DNA from: a virus
Direction: 5' to 3' (one strand)
DNA: 64,000 bases
IMG/VR virus record: IMGVR_UViG_3300014656_000015
Positions 4,013 through 48,680 of the stretch are shown piece after piece. The position numbers were made by a program, and so were the translations under genes. A model generated the notes under the pieces. It did no database searches, had not been told where the DNA came from, and worked only from the letters and a program-made list of their open reading frames with translations. How positions within the stretch are numbered: the first letter of the stretch is position 1; every line of letters starts with the position of its first letter.

Positions 4013-7000
4013 ATGGACCGGGTCAGCCCGATGTAGGAGGTCAGCCCGTCCGGGGAGCCGTCCGCGATCAAAGCGTTGAGCCGGCTCGTGGACACCGCGT
4101 CCTCCGACCGCTCGCTCCAGATGGTCCGGTCCGCCCGATGCAGCACGGCAAACAGGGTGACCGGGTACGTGATCTTGGTCGCCCCCATCTGGATCAACCG
4201 AGTCACCAGGGCCGAGAGCTCGAGCTGGTCATCGGGGAGCGTGCTCTCGATGAGTGGAATCAGGGCCGCCCGAACATTCTCCTCGGTGTCCCCGCCCCGA
4301 TACTGGATCTCGGTACGAATGAAGGTGGGGAGCAGGGCACGGACCAGCGGGCTGTGACAGGTGATGCGACGATTCAGGGCCCGGACATAGTCATGGATCT
4401 GCTCCACGATGGCGTCTTGCTCATAGCTCACCTGGATCGACTGTCCCGTGATCTCTTCTTTCTGGGTCGGGTCGTCATCGGCCCCCGCGATCAAGACCCT
4501 GGGCGAGATGTCCATCCAGAGCACTTCGGCCATGGAGTAGGCCAGGCTCACATCCTCGGTGCGTAGGGCCCAGCCCTCGCTCTCATAACCAGTTAGCGTG
4601 GCCTGGTACTCCGGGGGGATGTTGTACTGATTACCGTGCCCCTCCGAGACGCACTCCACATCCCAGTAGTAGAGCCCGAGCTCATCCACGCCCCGATCCA
4701 ACATCTGAGTGGAGCCGATCCGCTGCAGTCCGAGACGGCTGATGCGGACGTAGTGGCCGAGCTCGGCCCCGACGGGGCCGCCGGCCATCGCACCGCACAC
4801 CCAGGCACCACCATCCATATCGGTCAGTGTCAACCCCCCGGTCGGGAAGGCAGCGAGCACGCTGACCAGATAGAACCCCTTCTCCGGACTGTCATTGTCC
4901 GTGTCGGTTCCAGCAAAGGTGTTGGGCGGCAACCAGGGGTTGAAGGTCTGACGATTGACCCCGAGGATCGTGTCGGTGCAGTCCGAGACCCCGGCTGCCG
5001 AGTTGTCCAGGATCGTTATGGGCCGATCCGCACGGAGCATGAGGTAGGCCGTACCCGGCGCCGCAGCCGGTTCATACTTGCCCGCAGCCGGGTATCCGAT
5101 CTCGTTGTTGATCTGCGTGATGATGGCGTCGATGCCCAGCGCGGTGCCGCTGAAGACCACGGTCTCCGCACCGTAACCGACATCGACTTGGATGCTCAAT
5201 CCATCCAGGTTGAGGGCCCCGGCGACGATCAAATCCTCCGATCCGACAAGCGGGGCGTAGCTGATCTCGACCCGGTCCCCGAGCTCGAGCTCGTGCAGCA
5301 TCAGGTCCAGGTTGACCGCTGCTACCGAGTAAGGCAGGACGACGCCCGAGGCCGGCGTCAGCGTGACGGTGGGGACCGTGACCAGGGTCGGCAGGTACTG
5401 ATACCGCACCGTCGGGCTGGGGCGGAACCCAAGCTCCTGCACCCCGGTGTCCACCACGAATCGAGCCGTATCGCTGTCCATCCAGATCGTCAAGGGCTCC
5501 AGGAAGTAGAGCCGGAAGCTGCCGTAGGAGGGCGCCCCGCACACATACTCCATGCCGGCTGCGGCCCAGGGCAGCGCGGAGTCGAGACGGAGCTGGTTCG
5601 AGCTCAGCGCCGAGGCCGGGTCCCCGCCCACCTCGAGCACCGTGTAGAAGCCCTGGTTGTCGCTGGTCAGCACGTTGACAATGTCACCGGGCCGGACCCC
5701 GAGCGCCCAGTAGTCCAGGCTGAGGACGGGCAGTGAGCTCGTCACCACGTCGTCGTTGGGTGGGGCCTCCCGGGTCAACGTGTCCAGGGTCACGTCGACC
5801 GCGGTGCCCGCCTTGGACTCATTGCCCGGGTTCTGGAAGCTGAAGGAGCGGATGTCCACTGGATGCCGGTAGGGTACGTAGGAACCGGTCGGGGTAAGAC
5901 TGGAGTCGAGGAGCTCGACCTGGGTGACCCGGAGCAGGGGCAGGTCTATTCCGTCCAGCTTGCGGTAGATCTCGTACTGGAGCGGGCTCGCCGTATGCGG
6001 AATGCTGCTCTGCAGCGTGATCTGGTTCCCGGCCACACCGCCCGCCACGATACTGTATTCCCCCGCATCGCTCCCGTTCAGGATACGAACCAGGTCCGTG
6101 TCGACCACACCGACCACCCCGAAGTCGGGCACGCCGCTGACCGTCTCCACAACTGCCAGGCCGGCCACGGTGCGTAGATCGGAGCCGGTGTACCGCATCT
6201 CCCGAGGCGTCACCAGGTTGATGTCAACGTCATCCACCAGCAGGAACGAGATCGTGCTCGTGGTCGCCGTCATGTCCTGGCCCAGTCGGACCTGGTACGG
6301 GGGACCCCCGGCCACCTTCTCGATCACGCGGTACGCTCCCTGGTCCGGGCTCTGCTCGAGGTAGAGCGAGGTGCGGCCCTCGACGATCAAGGCCCACTCC
6401 GCTGCGGTGAGGTCCTGGAGCGTGACCACTGCACTACCCAGAATGGTCCGTGCATCCTCTCTCCTGGCAATGACCGCCTCATCGGACACCAGCGGCAGCG
6501 CCACGGTGAGTCGGTCCACGACGTTGCCGCGGACATAGATATCGGTGCAGCCCCCCACGTGAATCGTGTCAGTGGGCACATCGAGCGTGGTTCCGCCGTA
6601 GACATCGGGGAACAGGATGCCACCGGGAATGCTGGAGAGGGTGATCGACCGCTGCCGGATGTGCCAGTACGCACCAGCCAGGGAGTCGGCCAGCCGGTCC
6701 GCACCCGCATAGGCACTGGAGACCCGCACCCGGGTCGCGCCGATCACGCTCCCCAGCACGTAGTCCACGGGACCCGTCGCGGTCTCCACGACCAGGGTGT
6801 AGGAGGAGAGGTCGGTCCCGACCGGGCCCAGGGCCACCGTGAAGTCCACGCTTCCGGCCTGGTCGAAGAACGGAGTGTAACCGTCCGCATCGCCGTCGTC
6901 TGACGTGGTACCGTCCGACGCGCCGGCGTCGGAGCAGACCACGGCCCCGAGGCTCCCGCCCACCAGGACGTCCCGCTCCATCTCGTCGTCGTTGAAGCCC

Positions 7001-17588: not shown

Positions 17589-20500
17589 CTAGTGCCGTAC
17601 CAGATGCACCCGATCCTGGTTGGCGCTGATCACCTCGGCCGGCTGGACATATTGTGGCTCGACCATGGCACCGGGACGGGTAGCTCCGTAGCCCGGTGGG
17701 ATGACAAAGGGCTCGGTGCGCATTGCGTAGCGCCCGCTGTGCGTAGCCTGCTGCGCCGCGTAGGTACCCTTGCCGGGCTCCGGCATCTGATTGAAGGCCC
17801 AGCTGTGCGCCTTGCCCGTTGGATCGACGAGCCGAAGATCCAGATGATCACCCCTGACTGCGGCTGGGTGCTTGGAAAGGCTAACGGTCCATTCCTGGTT
17901 CGCGGCTCGCTCCTTTACCTTTGGAATCGGCTTGATTCTGCGCCCCGCCGGGATGCCAGGGGCGAACTCGGCAGCACCCTTCTCCTTCCCAGCGATCAAC
18001 CCCAGGACCTGGTCGTTCAGACGTTGCTTCTGGGCAGCGGTGTCGTAGAGTATGTCCTCGACGCCGCGCTTCGGCCCGAAGAACCCAAGGGGTCGGGCCG
18101 CGTAGCGTTCGACCTCAACTACCCTCTGCTCCGGCGGCAGATGGTCATGGGAGCCGAGACGCCGCGCTCTCCCGATCACCTGCTGCAGCTTCTCCTCGTT
18201 CCAGTGTGGCTCCAGCACCTGGACCTGCCGTGTCCCCTTCAGGTCCAGACCCTCACCCCCCGCTCCGGACACCAGCAGGGCCTTCAACCGTCCCTCATTG
18301 TAATCACGAACGTTCTGTTCCCGGACCCGCCGCGGGGTATCCCCACGGAAGAAGGCATGGGGCACGCCGTCCGCTGTCAGCTGGTCCGAGTAGTCATTCA
18401 GCGTACCCAGGTAGTTGGCGTAGACCACCGCCCGGTGCTCCGGATCCGTCTCGATTCGAGACTTCAGGCTCCCCACCGCGGCCAGGATCTTGGGGGAGGG
18501 CTCCGCCGCTGTGTCGTCCGTGACGTACTTCCGCTCCGAGCTCGATATCTGACGGGACTGCGACTGGAATCGGTTGATCCTGGCCAGGTCCTGCTTGTCC
18601 GGGGGGAGCCCCTTCCGCAACCGGATCCGTGTCATCAGCGGCAGCTCGCCCCAGGCCGCATCGTGGAGCTGGGACTGGCGTCGCGTCATGTCTGTATCGA
18701 CTCGACGCTCCACCAGCTCGGGAAACCCCTCGGACGTGCTGCCGTGGTAGTCGACCCAGCGATTGAGCACATCCCCGAGCTCCTTGTGCCTGACGATCTT
18801 CGGCTCCTTCTGTGCCCAGGGATTGATGGTCGTCAACAGCCCCCTACCCGGCTTCTGGACGTAACGTTGACGAAACTCGGATCCTTCTCGTAGCGCTTTG
18901 CCCCCAGCAGCCAGATTGACCAGGGTGGCAATGTCCTCAGGCTGATTGTAGACCGGTGAAGCGGTAAGCAGCAGACGCTTTCCAGCATCGCTTCTCTGCA
19001 GAAGCTGGTAGCCCTTCGATTGCGGATTGCGGACGTGGTGGGCCTCATCCACGACCAGAACGTCGGCCCGAGGCGGGCGCCCGTCCTTGATGGCCTTCTG
19101 CAACGACTCCACTTTGATGGGGAGCCCGCCACGAACATGCTTCTGGATCTCCTTCCTATAATTCTCCTGTAGCGCGGCCGGCACCAGCACACGCGCCTGA
19201 TCCGGATTCAGATCCACAATGGCACCCAACGAGCTCAGGGTCTTGCCGGACCCCGTACCGTGCGCCACCACCAGACCAGGTTGCTCCCGTATTCGTTCGA
19301 TCACACGCTGCTGATGTGGGAGGAGGCTGGATCGGAGCTGCGCCCCCGCCTTTCTCATGCTGAACTTGGCGAGCGGGTTGAAGAGCGGGATGCCCCGTGG
19401 ATCGTATCCCTCAAGCCGGGTCACGACATTGGTCCGACCCAGGTTCTTCATGCTGCTGCCCAGCCCCAGCTCGGAACGTCTGGCGATGGCCGTGGCCTGC
19501 TCCGGACTCAAGCCGGCCTGACGCAGCATGTTGAGGTCCTGAACGAACCTCGGGGCCGGCACGACCCCCGGGGTGAGGGACGGGACGTCGAACGATGCCG
19601 GAACCGTCCGGGGTGTGGCCGCCATCGGAGCCGATACCGGAGGGCTGGCCCGCACCGCCCGCTGCAGCGCTGCCTGACGATCGGAGACCGTCAATGGACG
19701 CGGGGCCAGACCCCGAGATGGGACCACCGTTCCAGTCGGACCCGTTGCAGCCGACGAGACAGGTACCATGGTCCTGCCCGGAGCCATGGTACGCGGAAAC
19801 GCTTCCGTGCTGGCCAGCGGCCGGGATACAGAACCGGGACGGGCCACACGGGTCCCCGCCATGGTGGACTGAGACAGGGCCGGGACCGGAGGGGGTGTGA
19901 TGAGGGTGCGCGGTAGGGGTCCTGGGGTGGCGCGGGCCGGAATGCTTGCGGCTCCTCCGGTCCGGAACATACGCATGACGCTGCTCCCCGCACCCCGCAG
20001 CTTCTGACCGAGAGACGTCATGTGCTTCACCGCGGAGCCTACGGCTCCCGCGCTTGGGATCGACAACGCCGTCTTATGGATGGCACCTGTGCCCCCACGC
20101 TCCTCCTCCTCCTCCTCCTCCTTCAGCGAGCTCATACGCTGCCCCCGGGGCGCGTCCGGGTCATAGCGACGGGTCGCGGCGATCTCGGCCCACTTCCCAT
20201 TCTTCTTCTTGAGGAGCTCTATCCCGGGCCCCACATGGTTCTCACAAACGTGGAAAGCTGCTCGGCCATCGGCCCAGATGATGGCCCGGGTCGCGGGTTC
20301 GGCGCATTCCGGATAACGACAGGTCCGAACGACCCGATCCGCCCCCGCCTTCACGATCCCAGTTATCTGATGCGGGGCCTTGTCCGCGCGTCGGATCGCC
20401 TCGAAGAGGTGCTTCTGGCAAGCCCACAGAGTCAGTGGCCCCGAGAAGGGCTTGTCGTGGCCGACGTAGCCGACACCAGCAACGGCAGGCTGTTGGCACC

Positions 20501-20849
20501 CATTGATCAAACACGTCTTCTTACGCTCGGCCCCCTCCTTTACCTCCGTAGCATGCACCCGTACCCGAATCTCCTCCGTCTCCTCCCTATATCCCGCTGG
20601 CTGCTCCCGACCCTCCTTGTCTACCCCCGGCTCCTCCCCCCACGGATCCGACTGGATCTGGCTGAACTCGGGTGCGGTGTCCCGTACCAGGGCCGTGTCA
20701 TGCCGCTCCTGGGGGGAGAGGAGATCGGAGGGGCGCGGGGACTGCCGACTCAGCAGAGTCTCCACGCGGAGCGGACGGATGCCGCTCCTCGTCTTCATGT
20801 GCCCACCCTCACGCCGACGCAGGCCAGCCGTCTTCATGGTCTTCATCAT
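17589..20849 (-). CDS. modular protein: low-complexity/Zn modules + SNF2-like helicase + LigD 3'-phosphoesterase-like domain
   Basis: HGTGSGKT, VVDEAHH, LLTASP, GGEGLDL, EPHWN...QVIGRARRLGSH; C-terminal H.DLRL...HSWA...H...Y of the LigD PE domain. Confidence 0.85.
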   Translation of the reverse strand: MMKTMKTAGLRRREGGHMKTRSGIRPLRVETLLSRQSPRPSDLLSPQERHDTALVRDTAPEFSQIQSDPWGEEPGVDKEGREQPAGYREETEEIRVRVHATEVKEGAERKKTCLINGCQQPAVAGVGYVGHDKPFSGPLTLWACQKHLFEAIRRADKAPHQITGIVKAGADRVVRTCRYPECAEPATRAIIWADGRAAFHVCENHVGPGIELLKKKNGKWAEIAATRRYDPDAPRGQRMSSLKEEEEEEERGGTGAIHKTALSIPSAGAVGSAVKHMTSLGQKLRGAGSSVMRMFRTGGAASIPARATPGPLPRTLITPPPVPALSQSTMAGTRVARPGSVSRPLASTEAFPRTMAPGRTMVPVSSAATGPTGTVVPSRGLAPRPLTVSDRQAALQRAVRASPPVSAPMAATPRTVPASFDVPSLTPGVVPAPRFVQDLNMLRQAGLSPEQATAIARRSELGLGSSMKNLGRTNVVTRLEGYDPRGIPLFNPLAKFSMRKAGAQLRSSLLPHQQRVIERIREQPGLVVAHGTGSGKTLSSLGAIVDLNPDQARVLVPAALQENYRKEIQKHVRGGLPIKVESLQKAIKDGRPPRADVLVVDEAHHVRNPQSKGYQLLQRSDAGKRLLLTASPVYNQPEDIATLVNLAAGGKALREGSEFRQRYVQKPGRGLLTTINPWAQKEPKIVRHKELGDVLNRWVDYHGSTSEGFPELVERRVDTDMTRRQSQLHDAAWGELPLMTRIRLRKGLPPDKQDLARINRFQSQSRQISSSERKYVTDDTAAEPSPKILAAVGSLKSRIETDPEHRAVVYANYLGTLNDYSDQLTADGVPHAFFRGDTPRRVREQNVRDYNEGRLKALLVSGAGGEGLDLKGTRQVQVLEPHWNEEKLQQVIGRARRLGSHDHLPPEQRVVEVERYAARPLGFFGPKRGVEDILYDTAAQKQRLNDQVLGLIAGKEKGAAEFAPGIPAGRRIKPIPKVKERAANQEWTVSLSKHPAAVRGDHLDLRLVDPTGKAHSWAFNQMPEPGKGTYAAQQATHSGRYAMRTEPFVIPPGYGATRPGAMVEPQYVQPAEVISANQDRVHLVRH

Positions 20850-40103: not shown

Positions 40104-40663
<560 letters not shown>

Positions 40664-42109: not shown

Positions 42110-42143
42110 GACTCTCCTTTCCACCTCAATTGGTGCGCCAGGG

Positions 42144-42180
42144 GCCTTATAACAAAAAGTGGCGGATCTCGTTATAAGGC
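42144..42180. promoter_or_regulatory. divergent promoter pair (GTTATAAG on each strand)
   Basis: Perfect 10-bp inverted repeat GCCTTATAAC (42144-53) / GTTATAAGGC (42171-80) in an AT-rich gap between divergent genes; second inverted repeat AATCCGG/CCGGATT at 42187-42206. Confidence 0.6.
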
Positions 42181-42239
42181 TCATGTAATCCGGAATTAGC
42201 CGGATTCATTGGCATGTACCACCAACAAAGGAGACAGAC

Positions 42240-43106
42240 ATGCCACGACAGAAGCAGGAGCCCAAGGAGCGGGCCCCGAAGCCACAGTGGCCCCAGGGTC
42301 CGGAGGACCTGCTCGACATCCTCAAGCGGAGGAATCGAGACATCTACGTTGAATTCGAGGTGGCCTGTGACGTCATCTCGAAGATCGTCGGGGGCACACC
42401 CAGATTGCTCGAGGCCATCTTCGCCCTGATCGACACCAGGGTGAAGCAGGGCAAGCTCAGCCCCGAGGAGGGGGAGCGGATCAAACTCGAGGTGCGGAAG
42501 CAGCACGAGGAGAAGGACAAGGCGAACCGGCTCCTCTACGAGGCTGAGATGGTGGCACGGGAGAACACGGGGGAGGACGTGGACCCGGAGAACCTACCCA
42601 CTAGCGCCCGCGCCATCGAGGCGAGCTGGAACACGTTCTGGCAGGACCCGATGGGTCTCTACCTGGAGACCCGAACCATCAAGAGCACGTTGCGGGACGT
42701 GTTCAGCGCCCTGCAGAAGTTCACGCCGGCGAACCGGAAGAAGGTCGGGCACAACTTCGGGCTCTACATCGAGGCCCCACCGGAGTCCCCGCACCGGGAC
42801 CGGGTCTACCTCTACCGGGGCGGAAGCGTGATCCAGAGGCCCGACACGTTCGAGGACAGGCCCGTCCTCATCAAGGGGGAGCACCCTCGAACCGCGCTGA
42901 AGCGCAACGACGTGATCTACGGCAAGGAGGAGGGAGAGGGATACGGCTGCCAGTTCGGCTTCAAGGTGAAGGTGCTCCGGGATGGCCCCCTGACCCACGA
43001 GGACATCGTGGACGGGCTCGCGCTCCTCATGGACCGCGGCCTGGGGGCGGCCGTTTCCCAGGGAAACGGGAAATGGGAGCCGCTGCACTTCCAGCGGCTC
43101 GGTTGA
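42240..43106 (+). CDS. stand-alone Cas7/RAMP-superfamily protein
   Basis: RAMP order of motifs: first strand + IVGGTP, LYLETRTIKSTLRD helix, thumb DRPV...RTALKRND, FKVKV strand, C-terminal Gly loop GLGAAVSQGNGKW; AAAGGAG RBS; no other cas gene in the window. Confidence 0.8.
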   Translation: MPRQKQEPKERAPKPQWPQGPEDLLDILKRRNRDIYVEFEVACDVISKIVGGTPRLLEAIFALIDTRVKQGKLSPEEGERIKLEVRKQHEEKDKANRLLYEAEMVARENTGEDVDPENLPTSARAIEASWNTFWQDPMGLYLETRTIKSTLRDVFSALQKFTPANRKKVGHNFGLYIEAPPESPHRDRVYLYRGGSVIQRPDTFEDRPVLIKGEHPRTALKRNDVIYGKEEGEGYGCQFGFKVKVLRDGPLTHEDIVDGLALLMDRGLGAAVSQGNGKWEPLHFQRLG

Positions 43107-43630
43107 TCGAAACCAGATCTGGATGACAATCTAAGCTAACCTAATCTGATCTGCTGACGATCTTGCCCGCTCAAGACGTTTCTGGCCGGATGACCCCCTA
43201 GGCCGAGCCGAGCCAAGACGTCCCACGACAAACTGCTGACGTACTCAACGGAACCTCGCTGGACTCGTCCCTGGTCACCGACAAACCGCTACCGACTCAA
43301 CGAACCACACACAATCCATACACACCGCTGCTGGTGACTGACGATCCGATGCGATCACAGGTGACAACCTCGACCGATCTCTGCACAGCATGGCCTCAGG
43401 TCATCGACTCGCCGCCCCACGCCACCCGAGTCGGGTCAAGGGAATCCTGCCGATTCTCTGCTCGGAGCGGAACCACGCACGGGCTTCTGACTCGCCACCC
43501 CGAGACACTCCTGGCGGCCCAACACACTGCCGACGCACCGCTCCGCGCTATGCACGGACACGCCTGGCTTCTGACATGCCACGCCGCTCCGCGCAGAACT
43601 CACGCCAACTAGGACCAGACAAACCCCACC
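43107..43630 (+). ncRNA. putative guide-RNA array: ~12 YGAC-delimited units made of C-NNNN pentamers
   Basis: Non-coding gap directly after the RAMP stop; unit ends (GAC/GAT) at 43127, 43158, 43194, 43240, 43282, 43296, 43342, 43374, 43408, 43454, 43491, 43534, 43575; C every 5 nt inside units. Confidence 0.7.
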
Positions 43631-43692
43631 ACGAGGAACCATTCTGGTTCCTCGTCTTAGCTATCTAAGGGAAGTGGCTCGGAGGTGAGCCG
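43631..43692. terminator. back-to-back hairpin+CTTAG terminators closing the array
   Basis: (+) 11-bp stem ACGAGGAACCA-TTC-TGGTTCCTCGT then CTTAGCTATC; (-) GGCTC-n6-GAGCC then ACTTCCCTTAG. Confidence 0.7.
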
Positions 43693-43712
43693 GGAATAGA
43701 AGGCTGGAGGGA

Positions 43713-44042
43713 TCAGTGGGGACAGCGACTGGTGCCCCCATCCGTTAACAGACGCACCGTTGTTTGCACCATTGCATCGAGCCAGCCCCGACCGGCGAAC
43801 GTACCGTGATGCACGAAACGTCCCCATGAGGGTGCCCAGTGGTCGATCCACAACGCATGCAGGGTTCGAGTACCGGGCCAAATCTGCACACGGAGCGCCA
43901 CGTTCCGATCGCTAGGATGTGACCGTTCCGCGACAAACTTGACCGTTGGACGGGGCCACGACGGCTGGACAACCATCCGGATATCGGTCCCCGCATCACG
44001 CAGGGCACAGTTGAGCCGGTCCAACGTATCCGCTGCTCGCAT
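43713..44042 (-). CDS. hypothetical protein
   Basis: Last gene of a minus operon, TAGATG coupling. Confidence 0.55.
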   Translation of the reverse strand: MRAADTLDRLNCALRDAGTDIRMVVQPSWPRPTVKFVAERSHPSDRNVALRVQIWPGTRTLHALWIDHWAPSWGRFVHHGTFAGRGWLDAMVQTTVRLLTDGGTSRCPH

Positions 44043-48315: not shown

Positions 48316-48680
48316 GGTGGACCCAAGGGGAATCGAACCCCTGTCCAGACAGATTCAGGCGGTAGGCTCTACGTGCGTAGAGCTGGATCAATCTTGAGAC
48401 CGATGAGCTCCAGCCCGGCTCGCCGGTCCCCAGGTGCGGATGAAGCCCCGCGGTACGCAGATGAAGTCAGCACCAACCACTCCATCACCGCGGTCCACTC
48501 AATGACGCCCAGATCCAGGCCGTGGCACTCCTGGTTGGACGGGCACCTATGCCGCGAGGCGCAGTGCCGGATAATCGTCACGGTTGGCGATTGAGTTTTC
48601 GTCGTAGGGATCATGGGGTCCACGACACCCCCAGCACGCTCCCACAGCCATCCTCTACCTGTCGAAACCAATTTGGGCCC
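48316..48680 (-). ncRNA. ssrA: tmRNA (transfer-messenger RNA)
   Basis: 5' GGGCCCA..GGTTTCGAC pairs with 3' TGGGTCC-A (G3:U Ala determinant); T-arm AGGGGTTCGATTCCCCT; tag ORF 48588-48547 = ANRDDYPALRLAA*. Confidence 0.95.

What the first reader, a model, noticed from the sequence alone, without database searches (positions are those of the whole stretch)
42240..43655. Candidate viral RNA-guided system: lone Cas7/RAMP-like gene plus a non-CRISPR, 5-nt-periodic RNA array
Seen: a 288-aa plus-strand ORF, against the direction of nearly all neighbours. Its stop is followed directly by ~520 bp with no credible ORF in an otherwise wall-to-wall coding genome, then an 11-bp hairpin. The protein has the RAMP motif order (strand 1 + GGTP, IKSTLRD helix, thumb, terminal GLGAAVSQGNG loop). 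No cas1/2/3/5/6/8/10 gene or identical-repeat array is in the window. Established: Cas7/Csm3/Csf2-type RAMPs polymerise on guide RNA with a fixed footprint per subunit (6 nt in class 1 CRISPR). Inference: each array unit is a guide coated by a filament of this protein at 5 nt per subunit. The fixed C would be protein-bound and the variable positions would read a target, probably for silencing host or competitor sequences since no nuclease is linked. From memory (not checked), viral RAMP + pentamer-repeat loci have been reported as 'VIPR' with GGY-NN units. This array is C-anchored on the probable sense strand and has YGAC boundaries, so it would be at least a distinct variant.
Basis: partly seen in the sequence, partly recalled or inferred. 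Interest (0 to 1): 0.96.

Follow-up and report, generated by a model that had tools for sequence, protein, structure and literature searches.

The report
Divergent phage VIPR guide-RNA system
A large uncultured phage carries a lone Cas7-like protein gene followed by about 520 bases of non-coding DNA written in five-base steps. This matches VIPR, a CRISPR-related RNA-guided DNA silencer first described in 2026, except that the fixed letter of each step is C on the gene's own strand instead of the published G.

Summary
A 288-aa + strand ORF (42240-43106) is followed by a 524-nt tract with almost no codon periodicity and an 11-bp hairpin.

**Protein.** It is a RAMP. The AlphaFold model has pLDDT 94.9, and its best solved matches are Cas7 proteins (Csm3, Cmr4, gRAMP; Z 12-13). 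Its family profile aligns to that of the published SUSP1 Vipr protein (hhalign 92%, E 7e-7).

**Tract.** The 5-nt periodicity is weak in this window (z 2.75 against shuffles). It is strong in homologous loci (z 6-7). In 7 of 11 loci the strongest period-5 peak lies just after the RAMP gene or within about 600 nt of its stop, and an eighth has a weaker peak there. C on the sense strand always carries the signal. Units begin with GACAA-type motifs.

**Strand.** The phage's own promoter motif (GNTATAAG, 42171-42178) and its hairpin+TTAG end (43630-43660) bracket gene and tract as one + strand cassette. The RNA is therefore most likely sense and C-anchored.

**Verdict.** This is a divergent VIPR-type system, a new variant of a kind published in 2026 preprints, which already mention non-GGY repeats. 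This scan has met VIPR loci in at least 48 other genomes, one with the same C anchor. No targets were found. Expression and binding are untested.

The parts
42146..42153 (-). Phage promoter motif GTTATAAG for the leftward neighbours, divergent partner of the cassette promoter
   Evidence: GNTATAAG occurs 8 times in the window against 0.84 expected, with 0 of 100 shuffles reaching 8. L001 has the same back-to-back pair.
42171..42178 (+). Phage promoter motif GTTATAAG, 62 nt upstream of the RAMP start codon
Evidence: The equivalent + strand motif lies at L001 5913-5920, upstream of the RAMP ATG at 6001. Only its enrichment and placement were tested here.
42227..42233 (+). Ribosome-binding site AAAGGAG, 6 nt before the ATG
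   Evidence: Read directly from the sequence.
42240..43106 (+). Vipr-like RAMP gene, 288 aa. Single RRM core with a GGTP loop after strand 1, a long helical insertion (about residues 75-128), a beta-hairpin (203-226, probable thumb) and a terminal G-loop (267-277).
   Evidence: AF2 pLDDT 94.9, pTM 0.87. Foldseek PDB top hits are Cmr4, Csm3 and type VII Cas7, E 8e-7 to 4e-4. VIA-align Z is 13.2 to gRAMP and 12.6 to Csm3. Viral RAMP-like models hit at E 2e-15. hhalign to the SUSP1 Vipr family gives 91.9%, E 6.8e-7, 139 columns.
43107..43630 (+). Non-coding, C-rich and G-poor tract (C 37%, G 23%) with local 5-nt periodicity carried by C. This is the presumed precursor of vrRNA-like guides, transcribed as the 3' extension of the RAMP mRNA.
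   Evidence: There is no alignment to the L001 tract, although the genes align at 72% over 682 nt.
43125..43155 (+). First clear in-phase run: GAC-AA followed by N-C-T/NN pentamers (C at position 2 in 5 of 6)
43192..43226 (+). In-phase run: C at position 3 in 6 of 7 pentamers counted from the GAC start
43294..43335 (+). In-phase run: C at position 3 in 7 of 8 pentamers counted from the GAC start
43406..43630 (+). Three to four degenerate units of about 41-88 nt that start with GAC[TA][CT]GCC. They share 71-86% identical heads spaced 83-84 nt apart.
   Evidence: Repeat families D1-D3; unit table.
43630..43660 (+). Cassette end: 11-12 bp hairpin followed by CTTAG. This is the phage's own hairpin+TTAG terminator type, on the + strand.
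   Evidence: It is one of only 3 such + strand sites in 64 kb. L001 ends its tract with a hairpin followed by a T-rich run ending in TTTAG.

Best explanation
The cassette at 42171-43660 is a divergent VIPR-type RNA-guided system of a large uncultured phage.

**Shown**
- The ORF encodes a single-domain Cas7-like RAMP that is distantly homologous to published Vipr proteins.
- It is followed, here and in most homologous loci, by a non-coding tract written in 5-nt steps. On the gene's sense strand a trinucleotide ending in C (N-Y/C-C, including GAC, CAC, GCC and ACC) alternates with two variable bases.
- Short units are delimited by GACAA-type motifs.
- Phage promoter and terminator motifs bracket the gene and the tract as one + strand unit.

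**Inferred, by analogy with the SUSP1 system**
- The tract is transcribed as the 3' extension of the RAMP mRNA and cut at or near the GACAA motifs into short guides.
- RAMP protomers polymerise along each guide, one per pentamer. They hold the fixed C-containing trinucleotide and present the variable bases.
- The filament binds matching double-stranded DNA of a competing phage, satellite or host element and blocks its transcription. No nuclease or accessory gene is in the cassette.
For: **Protein**
- RAMP fold.
- Sub-threshold but consistent matches over the C-terminal, G-loop region to Csm4, Csm3, Cas6 and Pfam RAMPs.
- Profile-profile homology to the SUSP1 Vipr family: 91.9%, E 6.8e-7.

**Tract**
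- Period-5 power against dinucleotide shuffles: window z 2.75, L001 z 7.1, L005 z 6.1, Mae-JY09 z 3.5, SUSP1 positive control z 9.8.
- In 7 of 11 loci the strongest period-5 peak of the whole locus lies just after the RAMP gene or within about 600 nt of its stop. L026 has a weaker second-ranked peak there. C is the carrier in all eight.
- Clean registers are seen in L025, L007, L021 and L001.
- The GAC start sets the phase. C at position 3 is 0.79-0.93 in L025, L007 and L001. In the window, C is 0.64 and 0.54 at positions 2-3, against 0.19 and 0.25 at positions 1 and 4.
- GACAA is seen 29 times against 5.8 expected, in 7 loci.
- The grammar is conserved while the content is not: the genes are 72% identical and the tracts cannot be aligned.

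**Sense transcription**
- Promoter motif at 42171-42178 (+) and hairpin+TTAG at 43630-43660 (+), with no promoter motif inside the tract.
- The same layout is present in L001.
- + strand tRNA genes follow the tract in L023 and lie just after the gene in L026.

**Published mechanism**
- bioRxiv 10.64898/2026.04.26.720920 and 10.64898/2026.04.26.720927.
- Non-canonical repeat units including GAC/NN and CAC/NN: 10.64898/2026.10.21.760802.
Against: - The periodicity in this window is weak. It sits in the top 3.5% of blocks, and a strict C-anchor model calls the tract null.
- Unit spacings in this window do not follow 5n+3, so this copy may be partly decayed.
- The canonical GGY/NN consensus is absent on both strands.
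- There is no conserved ~40-nt 3' tail and no vap gene.
- The family profile did not detect the SUSP1 vipr gene directly. The single SUSP1 sequence aligned at only 24% probability, so the homology rests on one profile-profile comparison.
- No target was found under skip rules 0-3 in the window or the fetched loci, nor by two exact gapped scans of IMG/VR.
- RNA folding does not show the sense strand to be unusually unstructured (z -2.1).
- Expression, processing, RNA binding and DNA binding are all untested.
Confidence: 0.7

Rival explanations
1. It is the same VIPR-type system, but the guides are transcribed from the antisense strand. They would then read NNNGG or NNNNG, which are alternative consensus forms already named in the VIPR paper, and nothing about the code would be new.
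For: - The reverse complement of the CC/C anchor is GG/G.
- The paper lists NNNGG, YNNNG and NNNNG repeats.
- In L025 the antisense strand reads largely as NNNGG.
- The terminal hairpin is symmetric. A weak - strand terminator-like site overlaps it at 43636-43624.
Against: - In the window and in L001 the phage promoter motif and the hairpin+TTAG end are on the sense strand and bracket the tract. There is no promoter motif inside or just right of the tract on the - strand.
- tRNA genes next to the tract are on the sense strand in L023 and L026.
- In Mae-JY09, L023, L025 and L026 the surrounding gene blocks run in the sense direction.
- SUSP1's vrRNAs are co-directional with vipr.
- YGAC enrichment is strand-specific: 27 per kb against 7.2 per kb.
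Confidence: 0.15
2. The RAMP and the tract are not a protein-RNA pair. On this reading the protein acts alone, for example as an RNA-processing enzyme or as a decoy for host CRISPR RNAs. The tract would be a 3' untranslated or regulatory region whose C-rich periodic composition has another cause.
For: - The periodicity is weak in this window.
- At least two family loci (L022, L024) have other genes directly after the RAMP gene, without a tract there.
- No binding data exist.
Against: - The tract co-occurs with the gene across proteins down to about 20-25% identity and in unrelated phage backgrounds. It keeps its strand, carrier base and delimiter motif while its sequence diverges completely.
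- This is the same association that defines published VIPR loci.
Confidence: 0.1
3. The tract is a DNA-level element (an origin, a packaging site, or protein-binding iterons), or it is a decayed or unrecognised coding region.
For: - Short degenerate direct repeats exist at spacings of 83-84 nt.
- ORFs of 92 aa can be drawn in the tract.
Against: - Period-3 signal is nearly absent.
- The strand-specific composition and motif bias and the placement between a promoter and a terminator point to an RNA.
- No identical iterons are present.
Confidence: 0.04

Closest known systems
Type II VIPR of Escherichia phage SUSP1 (Vipr ALH47069.1 + vap1 + vrRNAs; bioRxiv 10.64898/2026.04.26.720920)
   Same: - It is phage-encoded, with no cas genes and no CRISPR array.
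- It has a small single-RRM RAMP with a G-loop.
- A co-directional non-coding region carries 5-nt repeats that alternate fixed and variable positions.
- The proteins are homologous at profile level.
   Different: - SUSP1's protein has 195 aa. This one has 288 aa, with an N-terminal extension and a long helical insertion.
- SUSP1's units are YNNGG x 9-16 with a ~40-nt conserved structured tail, and each looks separately promoted. Here the fixed base is C, the units are short and contiguous and start with GACAA, and there is no tail.
- There is no vap gene here.
VIPR types with alternative repeats (NNNGG, YNNNG, NNNNG) and 'staggered' vrRNA arrays (same paper, methods and fig. S17-S18 legends)
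   Same: - The fixed part is reduced to one or two bases per pentamer.
- Guides are contiguous, with the end of one marking the start of the next.
   Different: - The published consensus forms are all G-based. Here the anchor is C on the strand that the promoter and terminator evidence marks as transcribed.
- I could not see the figures or tables, so I cannot tell whether this clade is among the seven types.
Non-canonical VIPR-like arrays found by a genomic language model (21 clusters with GAC/NN, CAC/NN, WGT/NN or TGH/NN; bioRxiv 10.64898/2026.10.21.760802)
   Same: - They show 5-nt periodicity with a fixed trinucleotide that is not GGY, including C-terminated GAC and CAC. Both of these occur among the trinucleotides here.
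- A Vipr-like fold lies next to the array.
   Different: - Those clusters are described with one dominant trinucleotide repeated about 10 times.
- Here the trinucleotide is degenerate (N-Y/C-C), the units hold about 5-16 pentamers, and GACAA acts as a delimiter.
- Overlap with those clusters could not be checked.
Cas7 backbone subunits of class 1 CRISPR effectors (Csm3, Cmr4, gRAMP/Cas7-11 domains, Csf2)
   Same: - The fold is the same, with RRM core, thumb-like hairpin and G-loop (Z 10-13).
- Polymerisation on a guide RNA with a fixed footprint is the presumed shared principle.
   Different: - No curated Cas7 model is reached.
- There is no CRISPR array and there are no partner cas genes.
- The period is 5 nt, not 6 nt.
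- The system is viral rather than cellular.

Membership tests
VIPR (Vipr protein + vrRNA) | The protein is a minimal single-RRM RAMP with a G-loop and thumb | tested here: met
   The AF2 model has pLDDT 94.9. All 66 Foldseek PDB hits at E <= 1e-3 that were shown are Cas7-type RAMPs. VIA-align Z is 10-13 over residues 31-288. The G-loop columns G267, G269, S273, Q274 and G277 are conserved.
VIPR (Vipr protein + vrRNA) | Sequence homology to published Vipr proteins | tested here: met
   hhalign of my 75-sequence family against a 36-sequence SUSP1 Vipr family gives probability 91.9%, E 6.8e-7, over 139 columns. The relationship is distant. The single SUSP1 sequence gave 24%, and an HMM search of the SUSP1 genome found nothing.
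VIPR (Vipr protein + vrRNA) | Viral or mobile-element context without cas genes or a CRISPR array | tested here: met
   No CRISPR-like repeats are in the 64 kb. The scanned neighbours have no Cas or defence hits. The window is phage-like: mostly ORFans, an SNF2 helicase, a phage-specific promoter motif and a 197.6-kb contig.
VIPR (Vipr protein + vrRNA) | A long intergenic region beside the gene carries tandem 5-nt repeats with fixed and variable positions | tested here: met
   The window gives z 2.75 and the homologues give z 3.5-7.1. In 7 of 11 loci the strongest period-5 peak lies just after the gene or within about 600 nt of its stop, and an eighth has a weaker peak there. Registers are shown. 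The signal is weak in this particular window.
VIPR (Vipr protein + vrRNA) | Repeat consensus GGY/NN (YNNGG) on the RNA strand | tested here: not met
   The GGYNN score in the tract is no better than in coding background on either strand. The fixed base is C on the sense strand. The paper allows 'a related consensus', and a later preprint reports GAC/NN and CAC/NN.
VIPR (Vipr protein + vrRNA) | A conserved structured 3' tail follows each repeat tract | tested here: not met
   No recurring ~40-nt element was found. The units are contiguous and delimited by GACAA-type pentamers. This resembles the 'staggered array' architecture described in a figure legend.
VIPR (Vipr protein + vrRNA) | An accessory vap gene sits in the operon (typical, not obligatory) | tested here: not met
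   The cassette between the promoter and the terminator holds one ORF. The paper also reports stand-alone vipr genes.
VIPR (Vipr protein + vrRNA) | vrRNAs are expressed and co-purify with Vipr | not testable with these tools
   This needs small-RNA sequencing and pull-down.
VIPR (Vipr protein + vrRNA) | The variable dinucleotides match natural DNA targets under the 1-nt skip rule | tested here: inconclusive
   No match beat the shuffled-guide controls in the window or in nine loci for skip 0-3. Two exact gapped scans of IMG/VR found nothing. The host and its competitors are unknown.
CRISPR-Cas class 1 Cas7 (Csm3/Cmr4/Csf2) | The protein reaches a curated Cas7-family model | tested here: not met
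   The window's protein has no hit in Pfam, NCBIfam or PADLOC. One homologue gives only sub-threshold matches over its C-terminal ~40 residues, for example Csm4 at 19.7 bits against a cut-off of 55.
CRISPR-Cas class 1 Cas7 (Csm3/Cmr4/Csf2) | The gene is linked to a CRISPR array and other effector subunits | tested here: not met

The most novel reading that the evidence does not exclude
This clade may use a different written code from published VIPR systems.
- The guide would be the sense-strand 3' extension of the RAMP mRNA.
- The protein would hold a pyrimidine-C (or single C) anchor instead of GGY. That would leave up to three variable bases per pentamer.
- Guides would be short (about 5-8 pentamers in the cleanest loci) and cut at a GACAA handle, possibly by the RAMP itself in the manner of Cas6.
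- If so, the target-reading (skip) rule and the RNA-recognition pocket would differ from SUSP1's. That would give a second, independent solution to noncontiguous RNA-guided DNA recognition.
Probability: 0.35. Interest if true: 0.7.

Novelty: new variant of a known kind. Interest (0 to 1): 0.5.

Why it matters
VIPR is a newly described, programmable RNA-guided DNA-binding system that its authors propose is older than CRISPR. A clade whose guides are anchored on C rather than GGY would show how freely the protein-RNA register code can change. These guides also lie in the 3' end of the effector's own mRNA and are punctuated by a short handle, which would point to a processing step not yet described. 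Such a clade would also widen the set of orthogonal guide chemistries for engineering. Its presence in a large phage that carries its own RNA polymerase and promoters fits the published picture of VIPR as a weapon between mobile elements. If the RNA turns out to be antisense, this is simply one more member of an already described NNNGG/NNNNG type.

Tried and rejected
**Searches on the tract that found nothing**
- Whole-tract Fourier analysis shows no period-5 peak, because the phase shifts between units.
- Tandem Repeats Finder and Rfam found nothing.
- A GGYNN scan on both strands was no better than coding background.
- blastn of the locus against 50,697 phage genomes gave no match.

**Searches for relatives that gave little**
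- The search for related loci in IMG/VR with the close alignment gave no confirmed relative.
- No whole genome is held for this window.
- Three homologue contigs were too short to be useful.
- An HMM search of the SUSP1 genome with my family profile found nothing.

**Comparisons that were uninformative**
- Four copies of the L001 tract from different samples are identical, so they say nothing about which positions vary.
- RNA folding of both strands does not discriminate between them.

**Target search**
- Two exact 1-nt-skip patterns in IMG/VR gave 0 hits.
- Skip rules 0-3 with mismatches, run against the window and nine loci, gave nothing above shuffled-guide controls.

**Rejected leads**
- The period-5 peak at 44.1-44.7 kb is coding sequence with mixed carrier bases.
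- The giant multi-hit proteins P0021 and P0090 are Rx_N and ankyrin repeat proteins, so these are spurious repeat-inflated matches.
- The profile's match to mycobacterial RNA polymerase beta' (E 0.002) was treated as chance.
Full report
**What is there.** The ORF at 42240-43106 (+) encodes 288 aa. It sits among genes that run mostly on the - strand. The next 524 nt (43107-43630) have almost no codon periodicity: period-3 power is 0.18-0.77, against 2-4.5 inside the ORF. The tract has no Rfam match and no tandem-repeat call. It is C-rich and G-poor on the + strand, with C 37% and G 23%. It ends in a perfect 11-bp hairpin at 43631-43655. There is no CRISPR-like array anywhere in the 64 kb, and the neighbouring ORFs hit no Cas or defence model.

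**The protein.**
- Pfam, PHROGs, NCBIfam and PADLOC give nothing for it.
- An exhaustive HMMER search found 87 family representatives. With 75 of them as the alignment, AlphaFold2 gave a confident model: pLDDT 94.9, pTM 0.87.
- Foldseek against the PDB returned Cas7-type RAMPs throughout the list shown: Cmr4 of a type III-B complex at E 8e-7, then Csm3 and type VII Cas7.
- An aligner that does not depend on Foldseek gave Z 13.2 to a gRAMP Cas7 domain, Z 12.6 to Csm3 and Z 11 to type IV Csf2-like subunits, spanning residues about 31-288.
- Among viral predicted structures, the best hits (E 2e-15, 4e-10 and 3e-6) are an unnamed protein, a phage protein named as a RAMP superfamily member, and an uncharacterised viral protein.
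- The conserved columns fit the RAMP hallmarks: G52 and P54 after strand 1, K148 in the helix, and G267, G269, S273, Q274 and G277 in the terminal glycine-rich loop.
- The profile's weak PDB and Pfam matches all fall on the C-terminal, G-loop part of Csm4, Csm3, Cmr6 and Cas6.

**What the literature says.**
VIPR systems were described in 2026 (bioRxiv 10.64898/2026.04.26.720920). They consist of a minimal RAMP (Vipr), usually one accessory gene (vap), and vrRNAs made of 9-16 YNNGG units followed by a conserved tail.
- Vipr protomers coat the RNA, hold each GGY and present the NN. The NN pairs with double-stranded DNA while skipping every third base. The outcome is transcriptional silencing of competing phages and satellites.
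- The paper names seven types, the alternative repeats NNNGG, YNNNG and NNNNG, and 'staggered' contiguous arrays.
- A later preprint (10.64898/2026.10.21.760802) reports 21 clusters of non-canonical 5-mers next to Vipr-like folds, among them GAC/NN and CAC/NN.

**Membership, protein side.** I located the SUSP1 VIPR locus by its YNNGG runs and took its 195-aa Vipr gene from the annotation. My family profile did not find that gene in an HMM search of the SUSP1 genome. The single SUSP1 sequence aligned only at the G-loop, with 24% probability. After collecting the SUSP1 Vipr family (529 hits) and aligning 36 diverse members, the profile-profile comparison gave 91.9% probability, E 6.8e-7, over 139 columns running from the central strand and helix to the C-terminus. 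I read this as distant but real homology. The present protein is about 90 residues longer, with an N-terminal extension and a long helical insertion.

**Membership, RNA side.**
- *No canonical consensus.* The tract shows no GGYNN signal on either strand beyond coding background.
- *Local periodicity.* Local period-5 power exceeds dinucleotide shuffles in four independent loci:

| Locus | Protein identity to the window | z against shuffles |
|---|---|---|
| Window | - | 2.75 (2 of 500 shuffles reach it) |
| L001 | 68% | 7.1 |
| L005 | 47% | 6.1 |
| Microcystis phage Mae-JY09 | 24%; profile E 1.5e-51 | 3.5 |
| SUSP1 (positive control) | - | 9.8 |

  On its own the window tract ranks only in the top 3.5% of equal-sized blocks of the window.
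- *Carrier base.* The carrier is C on the gene's sense strand in every case, in constant-phase segments separated by phase shifts.
- *Position.* In 7 of 11 loci the strongest period-5 peak of the entire locus lies just after the RAMP gene or within about 600 nt of its stop. L026 has a weaker, second-ranked peak there. Two loci have other genes directly after the RAMP gene, and one contig ends too early.
- *Delimiter motif.* Motif enrichment across nine tracts singles out GACAA (29 seen, 5.8 expected, in 7 loci), together with CGACAA and CAAGCC.
- *Cleanest locus.* L025 shows the grammar most clearly. Units start with GACAA and are spaced 33, 38 or 43 nt apart. Read in register from GAC, they are a trinucleotide ending in C alternating with two free bases.
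- *Phase.* C at position 3 after the GAC start reaches 0.79 (L025), 0.93 (Mae-JY09) and 0.79 (L001). In the window, C is 0.64 and 0.54 at positions 2-3, against 0.19 and 0.25 at positions 1 and 4.
- *This window.* YGAC is 2.8-fold enriched and strand-specific, but the unit lengths are irregular. This copy is the most degenerate of those examined.
- *Content.* Between the window and L001 the genes align at 72% over 682 nt. The alignment stops near the stop codon and the tracts share only motif-sized matches, 31 of 34 of them in the same orientation. The grammar is conserved and the content is not, which is what guide sequences would show.

**Which strand is the RNA?** This decides whether the anchor is C, which would be unusual, or G, which is a published alternative.
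I tested both here.
- GNTATAAG occurs 8 times against 0.84 expected. Two copies lie back to back just upstream of the RAMP gene, at 42146-42153 (-) and 42171-42178 (+), and none lies in the tract.
- The tract's terminal hairpin followed by CTTAG is one of only three such + strand sites in the window.
- L001 has the same divergent promoter pair, at 5887 (-) and 5913 (+), and a hairpin followed by a T-rich run ending in TTTAG at the end of its tract.
- In L023 the tract is directly followed by + strand tRNA genes, and in L026 + strand tRNA genes lie just after the gene.
- In Mae-JY09, L023, L025 and L026 the surrounding genes run the same way as the RAMP gene.
- SUSP1's vrRNAs are also co-directional with vipr.
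- I therefore put sense transcription at about 80%. RNA folding does not help: sense z is -2.1 and antisense z is -0.2.

**Mechanism.**
- *Shown:* a RAMP homologous to Vipr; a conserved, strand-specific, 5-nt-periodic non-coding tract in one transcription cassette with it; no nuclease or accessory gene in the cassette.
- *Inferred from the VIPR papers:* the tract is processed into short guides, protomers bind one per pentamer and hold the C-containing trinucleotide, the free bases read double-stranded DNA, and binding silences a competitor.
- *Speculative:* cutting happens at the GACAA motif, possibly by the RAMP itself; and because only one or two bases per pentamer are fixed, more than two bases per unit may read the target.
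- I found no targets. Guides from seven in-phase runs scored no better than shuffled guides under skip rules 0-3 against the window and nine loci. Two exact gapped patterns had no match in IMG/VR. The absence of self-matches agrees with the paper but is otherwise uninformative.

**Context.** The window is almost entirely ORFans, with an SNF2-type helicase and a Big_2 domain protein. The protein's longest source contig is 197.6 kb. Earlier notes of this scan describe the genome as a large uncultured groundwater phage with its own RNA polymerase and sigma factor. I did not re-test that.

**Verdict.**
- The kind is already published, and non-GGY variants are already mentioned in print.
- This scan has met VIPR-type loci in at least 48 other genomes, one with the same sense-strand C anchor.
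- What remains of interest is the variant itself: a longer Vipr relative, a C-anchored degenerate trinucleotide, GACAA-delimited short units, no tail and no vap, inside the effector's own mRNA.
- I could not see the papers' figures or tables, so I cannot say whether this clade is already among the seven types or the 21 non-canonical clusters.

Noticed in passing
window 48316-48680 (-): ARAGORN calls a tmRNA gene with tag peptide ANRDDYPALRLAA inside this phage-like region.
   Followed up: no
window 40167-40369: A tandem repeat with 9- and 12-nt steps, G+C-rich, lies inside an ORF on the - strand. It probably encodes a Gly/Cys/Asp-rich repetitive peptide.
   Followed up: no
window 43661-44040: The stretch just right of the hairpin also has very low period-3 signal (0.08-0.67), although a 109-aa - strand ORF (43713-44042) can be drawn there. 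It may be non-coding or hold a very atypical small gene.
   Followed up: partly
window 42112-42239 and L001 5880-6000: Back-to-back divergent GNTATAAG motifs 18-25 nt apart form a compact bidirectional promoter region. It is conserved between the two related phages.
   Followed up: partly
L024 2864-4087, then 4303-4561: In this family member two + strand ORFs (202 and 194 aa) follow the RAMP gene, and a C-carried period-5 region comes only after them. They could be vap-like accessory genes.
   Followed up: no
L022 3501-4154: A shorter subfamily (217-231 aa, the best profile scores) sits in a tight + strand operon with no periodic tract directly after the gene. Its array, if any, is elsewhere.
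   Followed up: no
L023 4688-4842 and L026 4614-4767: tRNA-Met and tRNA-Lys genes lie directly after the RAMP gene and its tract in two marine phage contigs, in swapped order. In L026 a short C-periodic stretch follows the tRNAs.
   Followed up: partly
family profile A2, positions 61-181: The profile gives a weak match (E 0.002) to residues 775-921 of mycobacterial RNA polymerase beta'. It is probably chance.
   Followed up: no
window 17589-20849 (-): A 1086-aa SNF2/DEAD-type helicase is one of the few ORFs in the window with any family match.
   Followed up: no
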